Below, piece by piece: positions 357 through 39,496 of a stretch of DNA of 64,000 bases. The stretch comes from an uncultured Candidatus Saccharibacteria bacterium. GTDB lineage: Bacteria > Patescibacteriota > WWE3 > 9FT-COMBO-53-11. The first letter of the stretch is position 1, and each line of letters opens with the position of its first letter. The position numbers were made by a program, and so were the translations under genes. The notes below the pieces were generated by a model. That model was given only the letters and a program-made list of their open reading frames with translations. It was not told where the DNA came from and searched no databases. The DNA lies in contig CAZEID010000006.1 in assembly GCA_964512075.1 (NCBI GenBank), forward strand, positions 1,024 to 65,023. The letters are read 5' to 3'.

Positions 357-436
357 CGCGCAACTTTCCTCCCGATTTTCCCCCGGCGACTTGAAACCTT
401 TCGTACGAAAGGTGCTACAGGAATGGTGAGTTAGTA

Positions 437-763: not shown

Positions 764-838
764 TGGTGGACCCGGGGGGAATCGAACCCCCGATCTCCGC
801 AATGCGAGTGCGGCGCTCTACCGCTGAGCTACGGGCCC
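764..838 (-). tRNA. tRNA-Ala (anticodon CGC)
   Basis: Reverse complement folds as a 75-nt cloverleaf: acceptor GGGCCCG/CGGGTCC with the G3:U70 Ala identity pair, anticodon loop CTCGCAT, T-loop TTCGATT, encoded CCA. Confidence 0.8.
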
Positions 839-843
839 CAGAG

Positions 844-919
844 TGGTGGAGCGTAGCGGAGTCGAACCGCTGACCTCCTGCATGCCATGCAGGCGCTCTA
901 CCGACTGAGCTAACGCCCC
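844..919 (-). tRNA. tRNA-Ala (anticodon GGC)
   Basis: Reverse complement folds as a 76-nt cloverleaf: acceptor GGGGCGT/ACGCTCC with G3:U70, anticodon loop ATGGCAT, T-loop TTCGACT, encoded CCA. Confidence 0.8.
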
Positions 920-11757: not shown

Positions 11758-12284
11758 GCTAGTGCTTTCGCGCTGTGTTCCTTCCTTGCTCTTGCTCTTT
11801 ACTGAATTGTTGTTTCTTGACAGAAACACCACAGTGCTCCTTACGTGTTGCACTATGGTCTGGAAAAAATTTACTTGTTAAAGTTCTCGCGATCGGGGTG
11901 GAAATTAAAAAACCCCCGTGCGGGGGCCCCAAGGGTCTACAGAAAATTGTGATTTCCTATTCCCGCATCGCTGGTGTTAATTTAACCGGTCTGAACACAA
12001 AAGTCAAGGGGGCCCCCAACTTCACCTCGGGAAGGACTAACGCCGATTAACTGGATCAAAAGCTCCCCAAACCGGCCTAAGGGCTGTCAAACAATAGTTC
12101 GGTTTTGCCAAAACAAAAGTTGACTAAACGCCAATCTCCTTTCTCCACGAAAAGGGATTAAAAATAAACAAGGTCGCAAAAACTACTCGCGGGGTAGCAA
12201 AGCTGGTAAGAAAACGCTTTTACTGGTTTGAAGATGTCTTAACAGTTGATACAGCAGCGTATAGTCCAGAATTAATTCTGGAAA

Positions 12285-13352
12285 CTACAGGACTGGCAAA
12301 CTTTTAATAATCGCCCCTCCCAAAACCTCATTCTGCTTGTAAAAAACGGCGGACTGACCAGGGGCAACCCCAAAAACAGGCTCTCGCAGAACCACCCTCC
12401 GACCCAAAAGCCGCGCTGGCAACAACTCCCCTAAATGCCGAATACGAACTTGCAAGCCGGGCAGTTTCGAGGTCCTATAGCTCCTGGAGATCCAATGCGG
12501 TTCACCAATCAAAAACTCTCGCACTTCCGCTTCTTTCCCCCGTCCCACAACCAAAGTGTTTGAGGGCACATCCTTGCCAACAACATAAAGCGGCAAACCA
12601 GTGGGATTAAAGATTTTAAAACCGTGGCGTTGACCCTCCGTGAAAAACCAAGCTCCGTCGTGTTCACCCACTACCTCACCCTTAGTATTGACCACGGCCC
12701 CCCGCCGAATTGGCAGATTCTGGCGCAGAAACTTGGCAATCGGAATCGGTCCAATGAAGCAAACCCCCATACTCTCCCTTCGGGAGTAATTTGGTAATCC
12801 GAACTTCCTTGCTAAGGAACGGACGGTCGCTTTTCGAAACTCTCCAACTGGAAACAAAATGTGTTCAAGCTGCCTCTCATTCAATCCGTAGAGGAAGTAG
12901 GACTGGTCCTTACTTTCATCGGCGCCGCGAAGAAGGTGAAAGCCATCTCTATCACGTCTAATCCGCGCATAATGACCCGTAGCAATGTAGTCAACGCGAA
13001 GATCCTTAAGCGCTTTTTTCATAAAAATCCCAAACTTAATTTCGCGATTGCAGACCACATCGGGGTTCGGCGTCCGGCCCGCCTGGTACTCCTCAAAAAA
13101 ATAACTTATAACTTTTTCTTGGTACTCCCGACGCAAGTCCCAAACTAGGAGGGGAATCTCCAGATGCTTAGCCACTCGCACCGCCGAAACCCGATCTTCC
13201 TTGGCCGTGCAGTAAGGACCCTCATCGTAGCAGTAGAGGTGGACCCCAATCACGTCGTAGCCCTGCTGCTTCAGCAAAGCGGCGGCCACCGCCGAATCCA
13301 CTCCTCCCGAAACTCCCACTGCCACCTTCGTTTCTCGGTTTTTTGCAGACAT
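12285..13352 (-). CDS. mnmA: tRNA 2-thiouridine(34) synthase MnmA
   Basis: PP-loop SGGVDS, CNREIKF, ATGHYAR, KDQSYFL motifs. Confidence 0.85.
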   Translation of the reverse strand: MSAKNRETKVAVGVSGGVDSAVAAALLKQQGYDVIGVHLYCYDEGPYCTAKEDRVSAVRVAKHLEIPLLVWDLRREYQEKVISYFFEEYQAGRTPNPDVVCNREIKFGIFMKKALKDLRVDYIATGHYARIRRDRDGFHLLRGADESKDQSYFLYGLNERQLEHILFPVGEFRKATVRSLARKFGLPNYSRRESMGVCFIGPIPIAKFLRQNLPIRRGAVVNTKGEVVGEHDGAWFFTEGQRHGFKIFNPTGLPLYVVGKDVPSNTLVVGRGKEAEVREFLIGEPHWISRSYRTSKLPGLQVRIRHLGELLPARLLGRRVVLREPVFGVAPGQSAVFYKQNEVLGGAIIKSLPVL

Positions 13353-32788: not shown

Positions 32789-35323
32789 GTGCGATCCTTC
32801 CCAAAGATCGAAAAGCCGTTCCAGACTTCCCCCGCGACTCTGTTCGAGGTCCTGCAAACCAGTCCGCAGGGGCTGACGGAAGCGGAAGCGCGGTCCCGTT
32901 GGGAAGAGCTTGGCCCCAACCAAATCGAACTCAAAAAGCGGCGGACCGCCGTTGCGATTCTGTTTTCCCAACTTCAAAACTGGCTAATGCTGGTACTGAT
33001 CGCCGCCGCGTTGGTTTCGTTTTCACTGGGCGAAAGGGTAGACTCCTTGGTAATCCTGGGAATTGTCCTTCTGAGTATCCTTTTCGGTTTCTTCCAAGAA
33101 TATCGGGCCGAAAGAACTCTCGAAAGTTTAAAGAAATTCATCTCCCATCAGGCCCGAGTCCTCCGGGACGGGCAGGTAAAGAAGATTAATGCCGCTCTTC
33201 TTACCGTCGGGGATATCGTTCTCGTACGGTTAGGTGACCGCATCCCGGCCGATCTCCGGCTGCTGGAAGCGCATAATCTTACGACCGACGAGATGCTTAT
33301 CACAGGAGAATCGCTCCCGGCGGTAAAAGCGCCGGGGCCGCTACGGCTCACCGATCCCGCCGTGGCCGAGCAGAAGAACATGCTTTTCGCCGGCAGCACG
33401 GTCTCCTCCGGGGAGGGCCGGGGAGTCGTAGTCGCGGTCGGAGCCGCCACTTACCTGGGCCAAACCGCAAAACGCCTAGAACAACCGGAACCCCCTACCG
33501 AGTTTCAGAAACAACTCCGGGCCTTCAGCCGCTTTCTCCTAGGGATAATCCTGGCTCTAACGGTCTTTGTCTTTCTCGCTAACGCCCTTCTCGGAAAAGG
33601 CTATCTCAATTCCTTCCTGTTCGCGGTCGCCTTGGCAGTGGGGGTTACTCCGGAACTGCTCCCAATGATTATCACCGTCACCCTTTCTCAAGGAGCTCTT
33701 CAAATGGCCCGCCTCAAAGTCGTGGTAAAGAAGCTGGTTTCCGTGGAAGACCTCGGCAATATCGACACTCTCTGCACCGACAAAACCGGAACTCTAACTA
33801 TCGGAAAGTTCACTCTTAAGAACTATTTGGACGATCACTTCGCAACCAGTGAGAAGGTTCTTCTCGATGCACTAGCGTGCGTTAACGCGGGGCGGGCGGG
33901 GGCGTTGCCCCCCAGTGACTTAGACCGGGCAATCTGGGAAGCACCGGTCAGCAAACGCCTCCGTCCGCAGTTGGAGAAAACAGAGATTTTGGGCGAAAAC
34001 GAATTTGATTTTGACCGTCGGAGGGAAAGCGTTCTCCTTCAAGTTGGGGAAAGCCGCCGCCTAATTGTAATGGGAGCACCCGAATCGGTCTTCGCCCAAT
34101 GCCAATTTTCTTCCTCTGCCGAGAAAAGAAAGGCCTGGAATTGGATTGAGAAAGCCGAGAATCAAGGGAATCGGATAATCGCCTTGGCTACCAAGGAAAC
34201 TACCAAAACCCGAGTTACCTCCCGCGATGAGACGAATCTCTCTTGGGAGGGTTTATTGGTCTTCACGGACCCGATTAAAGGGACCGCGCAGAAGTCTTTG
34301 GACCTTTTCCGCCAGCTGGGGGTCAACATTAAAATCATCAGCGGCGACAGTCCGCGAGTAGTTAAGCGGGTGGCGATGGCGGTCGGATTGGCCCGAGAGA
34401 ACACCCCGGTCGCGCTCGGCAGCGAACTGGAGAAGCTTAACCCCGCCCAATTTGAAGAATGGGCGCGGAAGTACACCCTCTTTGCCCGAACCACTCCGAC
34501 CCAAAAGGAACGGCTGATCGCCAGTCTAAATCGGGAGGGACATATCGTCGGTTTCCTCGGCGACGGGTTTAACGATGCTCCCGCGCTGAAATCTGCCGAT
34601 GTCGGAATCGCAGTCGACAACGGCTCGGAGACTGCCAAAGAAGCAGCGGATATCGTTTTACTAGAGAAGGATCTTGCCGTTCTGGCACAAGGAATTGAAG
34701 CGGGGCGAAAAATTTTCGGCAATATCAACAAATACATCTTCAACACTATTAGTGCCAACTATGGAAACATGTTCACGGTCGCAATCTCCTCACTGTTCCT
34801 AAAATTTATTCCTCTCCTCCCAACCCAGATTCTGCTGAACAACTTCATCAGCGACATTCCCTTGCTGGCGATTGCAACCGACAACGTGGATGAGGATTTT
34901 GTAAAAAAGCCGAAGCGTTGGAATATCCCGCTGATCGGGCGCTTCATGGTCTACTTTGGTTCTCTTAGCTCAATCTTTGACTTCGCCACCATTCTCCCCC
35001 TGCTCTACGTAAGCCAACTAAGCCCCGGACCCTTCCGAACCGCCTGGTTCATCGAGTCCGCTATCTCCGAAATCATCATCACTTTTGCCATCCGCACCCG
35101 AAAACCGTTCCAGAAGAGCCGCCCGAGCGGGTGGTTGCTGGGATTAAGCCTCGGCTCCCTTGCAGCGGTTTTAGCCCTTCCCTACACCCGGGCGGGAAAA
35201 GTGCTCTTCAACTTCTCCTCCCTCTCTCTACCGGTTCTCGGGTGGATCGCTCTCGTCCTGCTGACTTACTTTACTGCGGCCGAAATTGGCAAAAAGCGGT
35301 TCTTCCGCAAGTTTGAGATATAG
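32789..35323 (+). CDS. mgtA: magnesium-transporting P-type ATPase (MgtA type)
   Basis: DKTGTLT phosphorylation site, LGDGFNDAPALK hinge, TGES actuator motif, 10 TM. GTG start is uncertain. Confidence 0.8.
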   Translation: MRSFPKIEKPFQTSPATLFEVLQTSPQGLTEAEARSRWEELGPNQIELKKRRTAVAILFSQLQNWLMLVLIAAALVSFSLGERVDSLVILGIVLLSILFGFFQEYRAERTLESLKKFISHQARVLRDGQVKKINAALLTVGDIVLVRLGDRIPADLRLLEAHNLTTDEMLITGESLPAVKAPGPLRLTDPAVAEQKNMLFAGSTVSSGEGRGVVVAVGAATYLGQTAKRLEQPEPPTEFQKQLRAFSRFLLGIILALTVFVFLANALLGKGYLNSFLFAVALAVGVTPELLPMIITVTLSQGALQMARLKVVVKKLVSVEDLGNIDTLCTDKTGTLTIGKFTLKNYLDDHFATSEKVLLDALACVNAGRAGALPPSDLDRAIWEAPVSKRLRPQLEKTEILGENEFDFDRRRESVLLQVGESRRLIVMGAPESVFAQCQFSSSAEKRKAWNWIEKAENQGNRIIALATKETTKTRVTSRDETNLSWEGLLVFTDPIKGTAQKSLDLFRQLGVNIKIISGDSPRVVKRVAMAVGLARENTPVALGSELEKLNPAQFEEWARKYTLFARTTPTQKERLIASLNREGHIVGFLGDGFNDAPALKSADVGIAVDNGSETAKEAADIVLLEKDLAVLAQGIEAGRKIFGNINKYIFNTISANYGNMFTVAISSLFLKFIPLLPTQILLNNFISDIPLLAIATDNVDEDFVKKPKRWNIPLIGRFMVYFGSLSSIFDFATILPLLYVSQLSPGPFRTAWFIESAISEIIITFAIRTRKPFQKSRPSGWLLGLSLGSLAAVLALPYTRAGKVLFNFSSLSLPVLGWIALVLLTYFTAAEIGKKRFFRKFEI

Positions 35324-35409
35324 GTTGGAAAAGGAAGGCAACCCCTCAGAACTGCGGTGACTGAAGAAGTCAGAGCCAACCGCTATTGATCTCGCCGCTT
35401 CCTAACCCC

Positions 35410-35442
35410 TTGACAATATCTCATTATGAATATATATTCATA
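35410..35442 (+). promoter_or_regulatory. near-consensus promoter TTGACA-17-TATATT overlapped by an 18-bp perfect palindrome TATGAATATATATTCATA (35425-35442)
   Basis: Read directly. Followed by RBS GGAAGGAGGTG and the ATG at 35471. Confidence 0.55.
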
Positions 35443-35470
35443 TTAATGGGGCTGGAAGGAGGTGAAAATA

Positions 35471-35719
35471 ATGCCAGGATTAGATAGAACTGGACCGTTC
35501 GGAGCGGGTCCGGGGACCGGAAGAAGGTTTGGACCTTGTTTTGGCTTTGGCCTGGGTTATTTCCCGCACCATACCCGCGGGCTAGGCCGCTACTTCCGCT
35601 GGAACTGGCCGCAGGCAAAGGAGGACCAGAAGAAAGCCCTCCAAGAGTACCGAAAGGCACTCGAGGAAGAGCTGGAGGACGTTAAAAAAGCGGAAGAGGA
35701 TCTGGAAAAGAAGGAATAA
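35471..35719 (+). CDS. DUF5320-like small protein
   Basis: N-terminus MPGLDRTGPFGAGPGTGRRFGPCFGFGLGY, C-terminal coiled-coil/acidic tail. The family typically precedes DUF134. Confidence 0.55.
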   Translation: MPGLDRTGPFGAGPGTGRRFGPCFGFGLGYFPHHTRGLGRYFRWNWPQAKEDQKKALQEYRKALEEELEDVKKAEEDLEKKE

Positions 35720-35736
35720 ATCCTCTCCAAGACCTT

Positions 35737-36015
35737 ATGCCGCGCCCCCGAATTCCCCGGTGCTTGCGACTGCGACCCAGCGTTCACTACTTTAAGCCCC
35801 GAGGGACCCCTTTGCGGTCCCTGGAAGAAGTAGTTCTCCTCCCTGACGAGCTGGAGGCCCTCAACCTCTACGAGGTGGAGAAGCTGAAACAAACCGCCGC
35901 GGCCCAGAAAATGGGCATCTCTCAACCCACTTTCGCCCGCACCCTGGACCGCGCCCACAAAAAGATTGCGGAAGCCATTATCGGGGGGAAAGCGATTCGA
36001 ATTGAGAAAACTTGA
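35737..36015 (+). CDS. DUF134/UPF0251-family predicted DNA-binding protein
   Basis: MPRPRIPRCLRLRPSVHYFKPRGTPL...LNLYEVEKLKQTAAAQKMGISQPTFARTLDRAHKKIAEAIIGGKAIRIE matches the DUF134 pattern with a sigma-70-region-4-like HTH. Confidence 0.65.
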   Translation: MPRPRIPRCLRLRPSVHYFKPRGTPLRSLEEVVLLPDELEALNLYEVEKLKQTAAAQKMGISQPTFARTLDRAHKKIAEAIIGGKAIRIEKT

Positions 36016-36022
36016 GGACAAG

Positions 36023-36895
36023 TTAAGCTTTACCCTCGGAACCGAATAGTTTAATCTTGCGCTCAATCACCTCCTGGACAGCCGCAATCACGGGAGGCAT
36101 GATCTTGTAGATGGCAACTTCGTCGGTTGCCTTCAGGGTTTCCTCCAGTGTTTTTCGATAAGCCATCCGTAGCTCCGTATTGACGTTGACTTTAACGATC
36201 TTCCCAACCCGGATCGCATTCCGCACCTGCTCCTCGGAAATCGTACTCCCGCCGTGGAGACTGAAGAAGCAGGAAAGGCGTTCCCGCAGCTTCGCTAGCA
36301 AACCTAGGTCGAGACGCTTCTCGCTGGAGTAAATCCCGTGGACGTTCCCAATCGAAACCGCAAGGGTGTCAATCTCCGTTCTTTTCACGAAATCCTCGGC
36401 CTGATCCGGATCAGTCAACTCTTCCTTCGCTACTGCTTCTTCCGCTTTTTCGGCGTGGGGCGCACTAGTCCCGCCGATCGGCGTCAACTCCGCCTCAACC
36501 AAAAGCCCTCGCGCATGAGCTTCTTTGACAACTTCAGCTGTAGCCGCGACGTTCTCCTCATAGGGAAGCTTAGAGGCGTTAATGTGAATCAAATCGTAAC
36601 CGGCGGCAATTCCTGCCTTAGCCGCCTCCACGGACGGAGAATGGTCCAAATTAATCAAGATTGGGACACCAAATTCCTGACTAAGGTTGCGGACTACCGC
36701 CACTAGATTCCTTGCCCCAATGAATTTGGTCTCGCCGTGAGAACTTTCGGCAATCACAGGCGCCCTTAAGGACCCGGCCGCTTGCGCAATCGCCTTTAAA
36801 GTCTCCAAATTGGCAGCGTTGAAAGCCCCAATTGCATAACCCTCATTTTGCGCTTTTTCAAATATTTCCCTTGAATTTATCACCGATTGCTTCAC
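36023..36895 (-). CDS. class II fructose-bisphosphate aldolase family protein
   Basis: ILINLDHSPS and SLHGGS motifs of class II (metal-dependent) aldolases. Confidence 0.75.
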   Translation of the reverse strand: MKQSVINSREIFEKAQNEGYAIGAFNAANLETLKAIAQAAGSLRAPVIAESSHGETKFIGARNLVAVVRNLSQEFGVPILINLDHSPSVEAAKAGIAAGYDLIHINASKLPYEENVAATAEVVKEAHARGLLVEAELTPIGGTSAPHAEKAEEAVAKEELTDPDQAEDFVKRTEIDTLAVSIGNVHGIYSSEKRLDLGLLAKLRERLSCFFSLHGGSTISEEQVRNAIRVGKIVKVNVNTELRMAYRKTLEETLKATDEVAIYKIMPPVIAAVQEVIERKIKLFGSEGKA

Positions 36896-36983: not shown

Positions 36984-37991
36984 TTATTTACTCTTTAAAG
37001 ACTTCGCCTTCTTGGCCGCCTCCACCACGTTCTTGGCAACCAAGCCGAACTCCACCATCAGCTCCTCCGGCTTACCGGATTCTCCGAAACGGTCCCTTAC
37101 CCCCACTTTAACTACGGGAACCGGATAGTTTTCACTTAGGAACTCCGCGATGGCTCCCCCCAATCCTCCTGCCACTTGGTGCTCCTCCGCCGTCACAATT
37201 GCTCCCGCCTTTTTCGCGGCGGCCAAAACCATCTTCTCATCCAGCGGCTTAACCGACGGACTATTGTAAACCTCGACTCCCCAACCCGCCTTTTCGAGCT
37301 CCGCCGCCGCCAAAATCGATTCGTAAACTAAGGGACCGCAAGCAAAAATGGCAACATCCCGTTTCTCCTTGGCCGAATTCCAAAACAGCGGGGCTTGACC
37401 AATTGCAAAAGGTGTCTCCTCCGTCGTAAAAACGGGCGTTTTCTCGCGAGCGAAGCGCATGTAACATGGACCGTAAACCCTGGCGATCTCCATCACGATC
37501 TTTTTCGCCTCCCAAACATCGCAAGGGGCAAAAACCTTCATGTTGGGAATCACTCGCATAATTGTCATGTCTTCCAGTGCCTGGTGAGTCGCCCCATCCG
37601 GCCCCACCGATACTCCCGCGTGGGCTCCCATAATCTTGACATTGGTGTTCTGCAAAGCCGCGGTAGTTCGAATCTGTTCATTGTTTCGACCCGGGGAAAA
37701 AGCAGCGTAAGAGGCGATGAAAGGAACCTTTCCAGCCAAGGCCATTCCAGCTGCCAAGGCAGCCATGCTCTGCTCGGCAATTCCCGTCTCAATAAACCGC
37801 TCGGGGAAAGCTTTCCGAAACATCTCCGCCTGCGTAGAGACCGAAAGATCCGCGCAAAGGACGACTACGTTGGGATCGCTCTTCCCCGCCTCCACTACTC
37901 CCAAGCCAAAGCCATCCCGGGTAGGCCGTTGCTCCAGCTTGGCCTTGTCTAGAATGCTCGAAACCAATTTTGCCGAACTCGCAATAGGCAT
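36984..37991 (-). CDS. transketolase, C-terminal (pyrimidine-binding/transketolase-C) subunit
   Basis: Split-transketolase architecture. Pyr-binding domain plus C-terminal domain. Confidence 0.8.
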   Translation of the reverse strand: MPIASSAKLVSSILDKAKLEQRPTRDGFGLGVVEAGKSDPNVVVLCADLSVSTQAEMFRKAFPERFIETGIAEQSMAALAAGMALAGKVPFIASYAAFSPGRNNEQIRTTAALQNTNVKIMGAHAGVSVGPDGATHQALEDMTIMRVIPNMKVFAPCDVWEAKKIVMEIARVYGPCYMRFAREKTPVFTTEETPFAIGQAPLFWNSAKEKRDVAIFACGPLVYESILAAAELEKAGWGVEVYNSPSVKPLDEKMVLAAAKKAGAIVTAEEHQVAGGLGGAIAEFLSENYPVPVVKVGVRDRFGESGKPEELMVEFGLVAKNVVEAAKKAKSLKSK

Positions 37992-38051: not shown

Positions 38052-38918
38052 CTACTCATAGTCATTTCTAATCTTCCCCCCCAATGTTCGAATGTCATAA
38101 AGGGCTTTTTTAGCCTCTTCGGGATTGGGGGGTTTCCCGTGCCACTCAAACTTGCGCTCCATAAATCCCACTCCCTTGCCGGGGATCGTGCAGGCAATGA
38201 TCACTGTAGGCTTGCTAAAAACCGCTTTAGCGTGGTTGACCGCGTCAATCAGCTCTTCAATGTTGTGGCCATCGATGTCAATCACATTCCAACCAAAGGA
38301 CCGGTACTTATCCGCTAATGGTTCTAAAGGCATCACATCCTCGGTAAACCCGTCGATTTGGATTTGGTTACGATCAACAATGCCGATTAGATTCCCTAAC
38401 TTGTTTTTGCCGGCGAACATCGCCGCTTCCCAAATAATTCCGCAATTTTGCTCCCCATCCCCCATCAGGCAATAGGTCCACCAATTTTTCCCGTCCATTT
38501 TCGCCGCCAGCGCCATTCCCACCGCTTGGGGAAGCCCGTCGCCGAGAGGACCGGAAGTGGTTTCCAATCCCGGTAGGCGCTCCCGCTCGGGATGCCCCTG
38601 CAAGCGGGAACCAAACTGCCGCAGAGTCCAAAGCTCTTCGTGAGGAAAATATCCGGCGTGGGCCATCACTACGTAGCGGGCCGGACAGTAGTGGCCGCAG
38701 GAAAGGATAAACCGATCCCGCTCCGGCCAGTCGGGCTCCTTCGGCCGGTGGTTGAGGATCCGGAAGTAAAAAGCGGTCCAAAGCTCCATCGTACCTAAAG
38801 GTGCTGCCGAATGGCCGCTCCCCGCCTTGACGAGCATCTTAATCAGGTCCGTCCGCATCTCATTCGCCATCTTATAGAGCTCGTCGATGGTGTAGTGTTT
38901 TTTCCTAGGAAAGATCAT
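38052..38918 (-). CDS. transketolase, N-terminal (TPP-binding) subunit
   Basis: SGHSAAPLG... and GDG...N TPP-binding motifs. 288 aa. Confidence 0.8.
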   Translation of the reverse strand: MIFPRKKHYTIDELYKMANEMRTDLIKMLVKAGSGHSAAPLGTMELWTAFYFRILNHRPKEPDWPERDRFILSCGHYCPARYVVMAHAGYFPHEELWTLRQFGSRLQGHPERERLPGLETTSGPLGDGLPQAVGMALAAKMDGKNWWTYCLMGDGEQNCGIIWEAAMFAGKNKLGNLIGIVDRNQIQIDGFTEDVMPLEPLADKYRSFGWNVIDIDGHNIEELIDAVNHAKAVFSKPTVIIACTIPGKGVGFMERKFEWHGKPPNPEEAKKALYDIRTLGGKIRNDYE

Positions 38919-38920
38919 TT

Positions 38921-39496
38921 TTAATAAACGGCCTGCTCGCCGATCTCCCCATCCAGCTTCCGCAGCTGCTCCAGCACCCCCTCGGGAGTGTTGGCAATCC
39001 GGTAAACCCTTAACTCCTCCCCTCTAATATACATATTTCTTTCGAAGGCTGCCAGCAGATCCCGCCAAAAATCACCGAAAAGGATGAAGGGCTTGTGATG
39101 GCCAAAATACAGCCGGGCCAGACCCCAAGCCATTCCAAACTCCGAAAGCGTTCCGGTCCCACCCTTGAAAGTGACATAAGCGTCTCCCATATCCAACAGC
39201 TTCAGCGTCCGTTCCAAGTAGTGCTGGGTGATGATCTCCTCATCCACCTCATTAGTCTTATCCCGCCCCTCAAAGAGTGGGGCGTTCTTGGGATAAAAGC
39301 TAACCCCGATTACTCGGCCGCCGCCGGCGTGGGCGCCCAAAGTTGCGGCTTTCATCACTCCCGGCCCCCCGCCGTTGACAATCGTGTAACCATTCTCCGC
39401 CAAAAGCTTGGCAGTGGCGAACGCATCTTTCCAAACTTGGTCCTCCTCCTTGGCATCCGCGAAGCCGAAGATAGTAATTCTCTTAAACTTGGCCAT
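38921..39496 (-). CDS. LOG-family protein (TIGR00730; putative cytokinin riboside 5'-monophosphate phosphoribohydrolase / lysine-decarboxylase-like)
   Basis: GGGPGVM and PGGTGTLSEF motifs. Confidence 0.75.
   Translation of the reverse strand: MAKFKRITIFGFADAKEEDQVWKDAFATAKLLAENGYTIVNGGGPGVMKAATLGAHAGGGRVIGVSFYPKNAPLFEGRDKTNEVDEEIITQHYLERTLKLLDMGDAYVTFKGGTGTLSEFGMAWGLARLYFGHHKPFILFGDFWRDLLAAFERNMYIRGEELRVYRIANTPEGVLEQLRKLDGEIGEQAVY

What the first reader, a model, noticed from the sequence alone, without database searches (positions are those of the whole stretch)
35410..36015. DUF5320-like/DUF134 gene pair behind a consensus promoter with an 18-bp operator-like palindrome
TTGACA-17-TATATT is overlapped at its -10 by the perfect palindrome TATGAATATATATTCATA. 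Downstream are a Gly/Pro-rich DUF5320-type small protein and a DUF134 (UPF0251) HTH protein. This looks like a tightly autoregulated unit, with the DUF134 protein the obvious candidate binder. The pair is conserved in anaerobes but functionally uncharacterised. Here the complete regulatory architecture is readable.
Basis: partly seen in the sequence, partly recalled or inferred. Interest (0 to 1): 0.5.

Follow-up and report, generated by a model that had tools for sequence, protein, structure and literature searches.

The report
Conserved operator of the DUF134 regulator
An 18-bp palindrome on a strong promoter is the deeply conserved operator of an uncharacterised small DNA-binding protein (DUF134) encoded just downstream, which gives this unknown protein family a concrete, testable function as a self-repressing switch.

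Summary
TTGACA(35410-35415)-17-TATATT(35433-35438) is overlapped by the perfect palindrome TATGAATATATATTCATA (35425-35442). A DUF5320 gene (35471-35719) and a DUF134 gene (35737-36015) follow.

- The core TGAATA-NN-TATTCA is exact in 65 of 80 related loci (66 sites; 0.14 expected). These come from CPR bacteria, TM6 and DPANN archaea.
- It lies at the promoter of the operon that encodes DUF134. In 59 of 65 loci a small MPxxDGTGP gene starts about 29 nt downstream.
- In bacteria the site abuts or overlaps the -10. In archaea it lies just downstream of a TATA box.
- Seven loci whose DUF134 recognition helix reads HQSTFQR instead of SQPTF(A/H)R carry TGCAT-N4-ATGCA at the same place. Protein and operator therefore co-vary, which points to DUF134 as the binder. 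It argues against ArgR, whose ARG box has the same consensus.

Natural DUF134-DUF5320 fusions link the two proteins. Longer operons in relatives carry NifX-like, MinD/4Fe-4S, CDF, ZIP and EncFtn genes.

Most likely mechanism: a DUF134 dimer auto-represses the operon, and an unknown, possibly metal or Fe-S related, signal acts through the Gly-rich or Cys-rich partner. No binding experiment exists. I found no functional literature on either family.

The parts
35410..35415 (+). -35 hexamer TTGACA
   Evidence: Relatives also have TTGACA, but 11 bp further from the operator, at positions -28 to -23 of the position matrix.
35433..35438 (+). -10 hexamer TATATT, 17 nt from the -35. It lies inside the right half of the palindrome. 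The predicted transcription start is near 35445 (inferred).
   Evidence: 11 of 12 matches. The same geometry is seen only in L058.
35425..35442 (.). Operator: perfect 18-bp palindrome TATGAATATATATTCATA, with the conserved core TGAATA-NN-TATTCA at 35427-35440. The family consensus is TATWA-TGAATA-YR-TATTCA-wTAT.
   Evidence: Conservation. Covariation with the DUF134 recognition helix.
35458..35464 (+). Shine-Dalgarno sequence GGAGGTG, 6 nt before the ORF1 ATG.
   Evidence: GGAGGTG is present at the same place in most relatives.
35471..35719 (+). ORF1, 82 aa, DUF5320. The N-terminus carries the Gly-rich motif MPGLDRTGPFGAGPGTGRRFGPC and the C-terminus is a charged coiled-coil-like tail. It is the proposed partner or sensor of DUF134.
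   Evidence: Pfam PF17253, E 7.6e-14. It is the first gene after the operator in 59 of 65 loci. It occurs fused to DUF134 in L123, L136, L061 and many DPANN proteins.
35737..36015 (+). ORF2, 92 aa, DUF134 (UPF0251). It has an Arg/Pro-rich N-terminal arm, a small beta-sheet and a three-helix HTH. The recognition helix is I61-S-Q-P-T-F-A-R68. It is the proposed operator-binding repressor.
   Evidence: Pfam PF02001, E 4.1e-20. AlphaFold2 mean pLDDT 80, with helices 36-47, 52-59 and 63-83. The fold is closest to sigma-70 region 4 and the DeoR HTH. Homologues are 58-79% identical across CPR and DPANN.

Best explanation
The palindrome is the operator of the DUF134 protein encoded about 300 bp downstream.

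A DUF134 dimer is proposed to place its two sigma-4-like helix-turn-helix units on the half-sites TGAAT and ATTCA, whose centres are 9 bp apart. In this window the site covers the spacer and -10 of a near-consensus sigma-70 promoter, about -20 to -3. A bound dimer would therefore exclude RNA polymerase and repress the two-gene operon DUF5320-DUF134, giving negative autoregulation.

In most relatives the same operator starts inside the -10 and covers the transcription start. In DPANN archaea one or two copies lie just downstream of a BRE/TATA element. All three layouts are positions typical of repressors.

The Gly-rich DUF5320-type peptide is proposed to be the partner that conveys a signal to DUF134. 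In other lineages it carries a Cys6 ribbon or is fused to DUF134. The gene content of the longer operons suggests the signal relates to metal or Fe-S status.

Shown here: the sequence features, the domain assignments, the conservation and position of the operator, the helix/operator covariation, the fusions and the gene neighbourhoods.

Inferred: direct binding, the dimer, repression, the role of DUF5320 and the nature of the signal.
For: 1. Conservation. 66 exact TGAATA-NN-TATTCA sites occur in 65 of 80 loci (579 kb) that were fetched by DUF134 similarity only. Markov simulations give 0.14. With rare exceptions there is one site per locus, always upstream of DUF134. In 59 of 65 loci an MPxxDGTGP gene starts a median of 29 nt downstream.

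2. Symmetry beyond promoter needs. The distal half-site TATTCA and the flanking A and T at +16/+17 are nearly invariant (74-76 and 71/54 of 76), although they have no promoter role.

3. Promoter context. The bacterial consensus is TTGACA-N17-TATWA|TGAATA. Archaeal loci have TTTATAAA or TTTATATA about 6-10 nt upstream, usually followed by two sites 23-25 bp apart (one exact site in L210/L211).

4. Reverse test. Of 120 arbitrary exact hits of ATGAATANNTATTCAT in the metagenome collection, 18 have DUF5320 and/or DUF134 next to them, with the site upstream of the small gene.

5. Covariation. Loci chosen by protein alone were compared. DUF134 with helix SQPTFHR has TGAATATATATTCA (L210, L211, L213). 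DUF134 with helix HQST(F/Y)QR has TGCAT-N4-ATGCA directly before the gene in 7 of 7 distinct loci (L201/202, L203, L204, L205-207, L208, L209, L215). No cross-type site occurs in any of these loci, in L001-L080 or in the window. SQSTFQR and SQPTFQR proteins keep the A-type site, so the residue that tracks the base change is Ser62 to His.

6. DUF134 is the only DNA-binding-type protein always encoded in cis. Its model is a confident three-helix HTH.

7. DUF134-DUF5320 fusions occur in both orders.

8. Cargo genes of longer operons, confirmed by Pfam, are Nitro_FeMo-Co, MinD/ParA+Fer4, CDF and EncFtn, with ZIP genes alongside.
Against: - No binding or expression data exist.
- The HQSTFQR class may be one clade. 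The covariation may then represent a single evolutionary switch rather than many independent ones.
- Two CPR loci (L002, L010) carry a hybrid site TGCAT..ATTCA with an unchanged helix.
- A third helix class (SRTTFLR, L216) gave only an imperfect candidate site.
- The same DNA consensus is an ARG box, and it lies upstream of argR genes in four unrelated high-GC contigs. The sequence alone therefore does not identify the binder.
- The central YR and the left flank are also explained by promoter and start-site constraints.
- In this window the operon holds only the two small genes, and no second site exists in 64 kb. What the switch controls here, apart from itself, is unknown.
- DUF134 has no invariant metal ligand. 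Cys9 is conserved only within the CPR set.
Confidence: 0.75

Rival explanations
1. The palindrome is an ARG box bound by the arginine repressor ArgR, or is the site of some other regulator encoded elsewhere. The linkage to DUF134 would then be incidental.
For: The site fits the E. coli ARG-box consensus wnTGAATwwwwATTCAnw (own knowledge). In the metagenome scan the same 16-mer lies directly upstream of argR-like genes in L104, L188, L189 and L191, and upstream of TetR-like genes in L092, L142 and L162.
Against: - No ArgR-like gene is in the window or in L001-L080 (tblastn). This is a limited test.
- The site is single here rather than a tandem pair of boxes, and it is not next to arginine genes.
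- It is equally conserved in DPANN archaeal loci, where ArgR is not expected (own knowledge).
- It co-varies with the DUF134 recognition helix. A regulator encoded elsewhere would not predict this.
- 65 of 80 loci selected by DUF134 alone carry it.
Confidence: 0.05
2. The DNA is bound by DUF5320 or by an obligatory DUF134-DUF5320 complex. Alternatively, DUF134 acts positively, as an activator or a sigma-region-4-like promoter-recognition subunit, rather than as a repressor.
For: The DUF134 fold is closest to sigma-70 region 4, the -35-binding domain. DUF5320 has a Gly/Arg-rich segment, which one paper flagged by motif search as a possible nucleic-acid-binding sequence in Methanosarcina DUF134 and DUF5320 proteins (PMC7565180). 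The two proteins are fused in many genomes. The promoter is already near-consensus, so a role other than simple repression cannot be excluded.
Against: - The site overlaps the -10 or the start site in bacteria and lies downstream of the TATA box in archaea. These are not activator positions.
- The DUF5320 segment is predicted disordered, with pLDDT below 50, and its tail varies among coiled coil, Cys ribbon and short forms, while the operator stays constant.
- The residue that tracks operator specificity lies in DUF134.
Confidence: 0.12
3. No protein binds the site. The palindrome would be only an AT-rich promoter or initiation-region feature, or an RNA hairpin in the 5' leader.
For: The left flank doubles as the -10 and the central YR fits a start-site preference. 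AT-rich palindromes are easy to form in AT-rich intergenic DNA.
Against: - The distal half-site is invariant without any promoter role, and is kept in archaeal promoters as well.
- The promoter has shifted 11 bp relative to the palindrome in the window and L058, while the palindrome is unchanged.
- With either geometry at most half of the palindrome is transcribed.
- The leader fold is not unusual (z = -1.0) and there is no Rfam match.
- Covariation with the protein.
Confidence: 0.03

Closest known systems
Autoregulated helix-turn-helix repressors with a palindromic operator over their own promoter (for example ArsR/SmtB-type, or DeoR of Bacillus subtilis)
   Same: A small HTH protein is encoded behind a promoter that carries a dyad-symmetric site over the -10 or start site. 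The operator is single-copy and local, and metal-transport genes are often nearby. The HTH of the model superposes on the DeoR DNA-binding domain (7bhy, 35% identity over 40 residues).
   Different: There is no sequence membership in ArsR, Fur, DtxR, MerR or SorC/DeoR families. Only PF02001 passes its threshold. No solved structure exists. The protein has an Arg/Pro-rich N-terminal arm and a three-stranded sheet around the HTH. It has an obligatory small Gly-rich partner gene. It operates in both bacteria and archaea.
Sigma-70 region 4 / ECF sigma -35-binding domain
   Same: These are the best structural matches (2h27, 3vfz, 3hug and others; probability about 1, TM-score 0.5 on the query). Weak Pfam and NCBIfam hits also point to Sigma70_r4_2 and ECF sigma factors.
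   Different: The protein has no sigma region 2 and is only 92 aa long. Its target is a dyad at the -10 or +1 rather than a -35 element. The Foldseek E-values are weak, at best 0.011.
ArgR / ARG box
   Same: The DNA consensus is identical, TGAAT-wwww-ATTCA within an 18-bp palindrome. The same 16-mer lies in front of argR genes in L104, L188, L189 and L191.
   Different: The protein is different and no ArgR was found locally. The box is single here. There are no arginine genes nearby. The site is present in archaea and co-varies with DUF134.
orp (orange protein complex) gene clusters of Desulfovibrio vulgaris
   Same: The longer DUF134 operons of relatives carry the same cargo types: NifX-like Nitro_FeMo-Co proteins (Orp8-like) and MinD-type ATPases with two 4Fe-4S motifs (Orp3/4-like) (PMC6345978).
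   Different: In D. vulgaris these operons are driven by sigma-54 with OrpR and IHF (PMC8359166, PMC3897727), not by a DUF134 operator. The window itself has none of these cargo genes.
Archaeal repressors that bind just downstream of the TATA box
   Same: In the DPANN and Methanosarcinaceae loci the DUF134 operator follows a TTTATA(A/T)A element by about 6-10 nt and covers the expected start site or the start codon.
   Different: The same protein family and the same operator are used with bacterial sigma-70 promoters in CPR genomes.

Membership tests
Pfam PF02001 DUF134 (UPF0251, COG1342) | Match to the family HMM above the gathering score | tested here: met
   72.6 bits against a cut-off of 27, E 4.1e-20, residues 3-90. 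NCBIfam PRK04217 scored only 48 bits against a cut-off of 115, so the protein is not an equivalog of that model.
Pfam PF17253 DUF5320 | Match to the family HMM above the gathering score | tested here: met
   53.1 bits against a cut-off of 27, E 7.6e-14, residues 1-74.
Sigma-70-type promoter | -35 and -10 hexamers close to consensus with a 16-18 nt spacer | tested here: met
   TTGACA-17-TATATT, 11 of 12 matches.
Sigma-70-type promoter | A mapped transcription start site | not testable with these tools
   No transcript data are available. A start near 35445 is inferred from the position of the -10.
Autoregulated repressor-operator pair | The operator is conserved upstream of orthologous regulator genes | tested here: met
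   65 of 80 loci carry the exact core against 0.14 expected. Position matrix.
Autoregulated repressor-operator pair | Operator sequence co-varies with the regulator's recognition helix | tested here: met
   S-Q-P-T-F goes with TGAAT..ATTCA, and H-Q-S-T-F goes with TGCAT..ATGCA in 7 of 7 loci, with no cross-type site. Caveat: this may be a single evolutionary event.
Autoregulated repressor-operator pair | Direct binding of the protein to the site, and repression | not testable with these tools
   This needs EMSA, footprinting or a reporter assay.
ArgR regulon / ARG box | An 18-bp site matching wnTGAATwwwwATTCAnw | tested here: met
   aTGAATATATATTCAt at 35426-35441. The consensus is from own knowledge.
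ArgR regulon / ARG box | An ArgR gene is present and the site is linked to arginine metabolism, usually as tandem boxes | tested here: not met
   No ArgR-like ORF is in the window or in L001-L080. The box is single and the neighbours are a P-type ATPase and an aldolase. The whole genome is not available.
orp-like NifX/MinD-Fer4 cluster | Nitro_FeMo-Co and MinD+4Fe-4S ATPase genes in the operon | tested here: not met
   These genes are absent from the window locus. They are present in relatives L003, L006, L009, L012, L024, L063, L069, L070, L203-L210 and L213.
Known metalloregulator families (ArsR/SmtB, Fur, DtxR, MerR, CsoR) | Sequence or fold membership | tested here: not met
   No such family reaches its threshold in Pfam or NCBIfam. 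MntR and MarR hits are far below their cut-offs. The PDB sequence search found nothing with E below 0.1.

The most novel reading that the evidence does not exclude
DUF134 with its Gly-rich partner (DUF5320, or the Cys6 ribbon) may be a previously unrecognised two-part metal- or Fe-S-responsive switch shared by CPR bacteria and DPANN archaea. In this reading one regulator and one 14-bp operator work unchanged with bacterial sigma-70 promoters and with archaeal TATA/TFB promoters. The partner peptide senses the signal and releases or strengthens DUF134 binding. A one-residue code (Ser62 for A, His62 for C at half-site position 3) sets operator specificity. The near-identical module in both groups of ultra-small, host-dependent organisms would reflect gene exchange between them or a shared ancient core regulator.
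Probability: 0.3. Interest if true: 0.8.

Novelty: new member of a known kind. Interest (0 to 1): 0.6.

Why it matters
DUF134/UPF0251 and DUF5320 are widespread families with no assigned function. DUF134 alone has 2,681 cluster representatives at 50% identity. In the paper library searched here, nothing functional has been published on either family.

This work predicts four things for them:
- a DNA target: TGAAT-N4-ATTCA, or TGCAT-N4-ATGCA in a sister class;
- a mode of action: auto-repression at the promoter;
- a specificity-determining residue;
- a physical or functional partner.

CPR bacteria and DPANN archaea have very few recognisable regulators and cannot easily be grown. A regulator-operator pair that can be tested entirely in vitro or in E. 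coli is therefore useful. It also offers a handle on how orp-like NifX/MinD Fe-S gene clusters and the adjacent CDF and ZIP transporters are controlled outside Desulfovibrio.

Conceptually it remains an ordinary design: an autoregulated HTH repressor.

Tried and rejected
- RNA element. There is no significant Rfam match and the leader fold is unremarkable (z = -1.0). Rejected.
- ArgR site. This was considered seriously because the motif equals the ARG box and precedes argR genes elsewhere. It was rejected as the main explanation because of the covariation and the archaeal distribution.
- Further regulon members. There is no second site in the window. One-mismatch sites in relatives lie before an ArsR-type gene (L009 5720) and a Fur-like gene (L053 3641), and are probably other regulators' sites or chance. 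Metagenome hits before CbiM (L086), a NifX-like gene (L156) and a His/Cys-rich P-type ATPase (L192) could not be tied to a DUF134 genome.
- Cultured organisms. The tblastn search against plasmids found nothing. The two further homologue searches returned DPANN and Methanosarcinaceae MAGs only.
- Third helix class (SRTTFLR, L216). It gave only an imperfect TGGAC-ATAT-GTTCA candidate plus an unrelated 28-bp palindrome. Inconclusive.
- Solved structures. None exists for DUF134, and Foldseek against the PDB gave only generic HTH matches.
- A conserved metal ligand in DUF134. None is invariant, so the sensor role is assigned to the partner by inference only.

Full report
**Observation**

- TTGACA is at 35410-35415. 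A 17-nt spacer follows, and TATATT is at 35433-35438. This matches 11 of 12 consensus positions and is the only strong promoter-like site in 34800-36600.
- The perfect 18-bp palindrome TATGAATATATATTCATA spans 35425-35442 and overlaps the spacer and the -10.
- GGAGGTG (35458-35464) precedes the ATG at 35471.
- ORF1 (35471-35719, 82 aa) matches Pfam DUF5320 (E 7.6e-14). ORF2 (35737-36015, 92 aa) matches DUF134 (E 4.1e-20) and has weak sigma-70 region 4 and HTH hits.

The 16-mer core occurs once in the window even with three mismatches allowed. On its own an 18-bp perfect palindrome is only mildly unusual here: 0.32 are expected per window, and four are present. The case therefore rests on comparison with relatives.

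**Organism and context**

The closest DUF134 proteins are 70-79% identical and come from CPR/Patescibacteria such as Gottesmanbacteria.

Upstream on the same strand is a P-type cation ATPase (32789-35323). Downstream, on the opposite strand and converging on the pair, are a class II fructose-bisphosphate aldolase, a split transketolase and a LOG-family gene. Here the operon therefore consists of the two small genes only. No other DUF134 or DUF5320 gene is in the window.

Eighty loci were fetched from one-genome-per-species contigs by similarity to the DUF134 protein alone. They come from many CPR lineages, from TM6 and from DPANN archaea (Aenigmatarchaeota).

- The exact core TGAATA-NN-TATTCA occurs 66 times in 65 of these 80 loci (579 kb). 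First-order Markov simulations give 0.14.
- With rare exceptions it occurs once per locus, always upstream of DUF134.
- In 59 of 65 loci an ORF beginning MPxxDGTGP starts within 260 nt downstream of the site (median 29 nt).
- Loci without a site are mostly of two kinds. Some have long operons whose head lies outside the fetched 4 kb (L003, L012, L019) or loci cut at the contig end (L011, L033). Others have a one-mismatch site (L021, L031, L045, L071, L075).

The palindrome is therefore conserved, and the stated refutation fails.

**Anatomy of the conserved region**

A position matrix over 76 loci gives TTGACA (-28 to -23), 17 nt, then TATWA|TGAATA-YR-TATTCA|wTAT.
- The -10 (TATWAT) ends on the first T of the core.
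- The expected start site falls on the central YR.
- The distal half-site, which has no promoter role, is as invariant as the proximal one (74-76 of 76).

The window and L058 differ. Their TTGACA is 11 bp closer, so the -10 becomes the TATATT inside the right half, and the operator covers roughly -20 to -3.

In the archaeal loci there is no TTGACA. Instead a TTTATAAA or TTTATATA element, with a BRE-like cgaaag, lies about 6-10 nt upstream of the site. These loci usually carry two sites 23-25 bp apart (one exact site in L210 and L211).

All three layouts place the site where a bound protein would block RNA polymerase.

**Reverse test**

The metagenome collection was scanned for exact ATGAATANNTATTCAT, and the scan returned 120 arbitrary hits from all kinds of organisms.
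- Eighteen have DUF5320 and/or DUF134 next to the site, with the site upstream of the small gene.
- Four sites lie directly before argR-like genes in high-GC contigs, and three lie before TetR-like genes.
- 26 lie inside long ORFs.

The DNA sequence is thus also used as an ARG box by unrelated bacteria, and the motif alone does not name its binder.

**Who binds the site**

The two further homologue searches showed that in DPANN archaea and Methanosarcinaceae DUF134 is commonly fused to the DUF5320 N-terminal motif and to a Cys-rich tail. These proteins fall into two recognition-helix classes, SQPTFHR and HQST(F/Y)QR. Loci were fetched by protein identity only.

| Recognition helix | Loci | Site found |
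|---|---|---|
| SQPTFHR | L210, L211, L213 (3 of 3) | TGAATATATATTCA at the operon head |
| HQST(F/Y)QR | L201/202, L203, L204, L205-207, L208, L209, L215 (7 of 7 distinct) | TGCAT-N4-ATGCA directly before the gene, behind a TATA box |

No locus has the other type of site, and the C-type site is absent from L001-L080 and from the window. Proteins with SQSTFQR or SQPTFQR keep the A-type site, so Ser62 to His is the residue that tracks A to C at half-site position 3.

This covariation, plus the constant linkage in cis, makes DUF134 the likely binder. It argues against ArgR, which was also not found in the window or in the 80 loci.

Three caveats apply. The His class may be a single clade. Two CPR loci carry a hybrid site with an unchanged helix. 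A third helix class (L216) gave only an imperfect candidate.

**The protein**

AlphaFold2 gives mean pLDDT 80. The model has:
- a disordered Arg/Pro-rich arm (residues 1-15);
- three short strands (16-19, 31-34, 86-90);
- a confident three-helix HTH (36-47, 52-59, 63-83).

The best PDB matches are sigma-70 region 4 domains and the DeoR DNA-binding domain, all with weak E-values. No solved structure matches by sequence.

**The partner**

The gene after the operator always begins with the motif MPxxDGTGPxGxGPxTGRGxGxC, but its tail varies:

| Tail of the partner ORF | Count |
|---|---|
| Charged coiled coil (DUF5320 proper, as in the window) | 43 |
| Short | 20 |
| Cys-rich ribbon | 6 |
| Fused to the N-terminus of DUF134 (L061) | 1 |

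C-terminal fusions to DUF134 are common in archaea. Their Cys tail has six invariant cysteines. In the model the Gly-rich segment is disordered and the Cys domain is a separate small fold. The same Cys ribbon is also attached to the C-terminus of CDF transporters in L006-type operons. These fusions argue that DUF134 and the Gly-rich or Cys-rich module act together.

**Gene neighbourhood**

Longer operons behind the same operator carry several cargo genes, all confirmed by Pfam:
- NifX-like Nitro_FeMo-Co proteins;
- MinD/ParA ATPases with 4Fe-4S motifs;
- CDF transporters;
- EncFtn-like ferritins;
- PEMT/ICMT-like membrane proteins.

ZIP transporters often lie alongside. Archaeal loci add radical SAM and CMD genes, with FeoAB/DtxR, rubrerythrin and ArsP genes nearby.

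The NifX-like and MinD-Fer4 genes are the types that form the orp clusters of Desulfovibrio. There they are controlled by sigma-54 with OrpR (PMC6345978, PMC8359166). This suggests, but does not show, that the signal relates to metal or Fe-S status.

**Mechanism proposed**

A DUF134 dimer binds the dyad and represses its own operon. The Gly-rich or Cys-rich partner modulates this in response to an unknown signal. Binding, repression and the signal are all inferred.

**Rivals**

- ArgR or another regulator encoded elsewhere: confidence 0.05.
- DUF5320, an obligatory complex, or a positive sigma-4-like role for DUF134: 0.12.
- A pure promoter or RNA feature with no protein bound: 0.03. There is no significant Rfam match and the leader fold has z = -1.0.

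**Novelty**

Full-text searches for DUF134, UPF0251, COG1342, PF02001 and DUF5320 found only incidental mentions. The design is ordinary: an autoregulated HTH repressor. The following appear to be new:
- the family's function;
- its operator;
- the specificity residue;
- the partner;
- the shared use by CPR bacteria and DPANN archaea.

I rate it a new member of a known kind, with interest 0.6.

Noticed in passing
window 396-413 and 728-745, flanking minus-strand ORF 437-724: Two near-identical perfect 18-bp palindromes, ACCTTTCGTACGAAAGGT and ACCATTCGTACGAATGGT, bracket a 95-aa ArsR-family HTH gene (PF01022). One lies directly upstream of its start and one just past its stop. They look like a second autoregulated operator pair.
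   Followed up: partly
window 764-838 and 844-919 (minus strand): Two tandem tRNA-Ala genes (anticodons CGC and GGC) lie just upstream of the ArsR-family gene on the same strand.
   Followed up: yes
window 12265-12282: A perfect 18-bp palindrome TCCAGAATTAATTCTGGA lies immediately 3' of the minus-strand ORF 12285-13352. It may be a terminator hairpin or another operator.
   Followed up: no
window 36984-37991 and 38052-38918 (minus strand): Transketolase is encoded as two separate genes, one for the N-terminal TPP-binding half and one for the pyrimidine-binding plus C-terminal half. They lie next to a class II FBP aldolase (36023-36895) and a LOG/SLOG-family gene (38921-39496).
   Followed up: partly
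L104 10936, L188 4281, L189 2819, L191 2370: The same 16-mer ATGAATANNTATTCAT lies directly upstream of argR-like genes in high-GC metagenome contigs. These are presumably autoregulatory ARG boxes, and they show that two unrelated regulators use the same DNA consensus.
   Followed up: partly
L006 2950-3999 (also L003, L009, L012, L019); L203 6558-7799 and L209 5141-end: Some CDF metal transporters carry a C-terminal Gly-rich segment plus Cys ribbon, of the same kind as the DUF134 partner. Others are fused to a NifX-like Nitro_FeMo-Co domain. Both are unusual cytoplasmic tails for CDF proteins.
   Followed up: partly
P0303 (262 aa): A triple fusion of DUF134, the DUF5320 motif and a Nitro_FeMo-Co domain in a single protein.
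   Followed up: no
L009 5720: TTGACA-17-TATAAT is followed by TGAATATGAATTCA, directly before an ArsR/SmtB-like gene, a thioredoxin-like gene and a permease gene. This is a similar but distinct dyad, probably the ArsR protein's own operator.
   Followed up: no
L216 193-220: A 28-bp perfect palindrome CACATATACCACGATCGTGGTATATGTG follows a TATA-like element, upstream of an ArsP-NifX-DUF134 operon whose DUF134 has a third type of recognition helix (SRTTFLR).
   Followed up: no
Record titles of L006, L007, L009, L012-L015 and others: Many loci whose DUF134 module is 70-79% identical to the window's are titled 'uncultured Gammaproteobacteria' or 'Pseudomonadales'. Their module matches that of the CPR-labelled loci, so these titles may be mislabelled taxonomy.
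   Followed up: no
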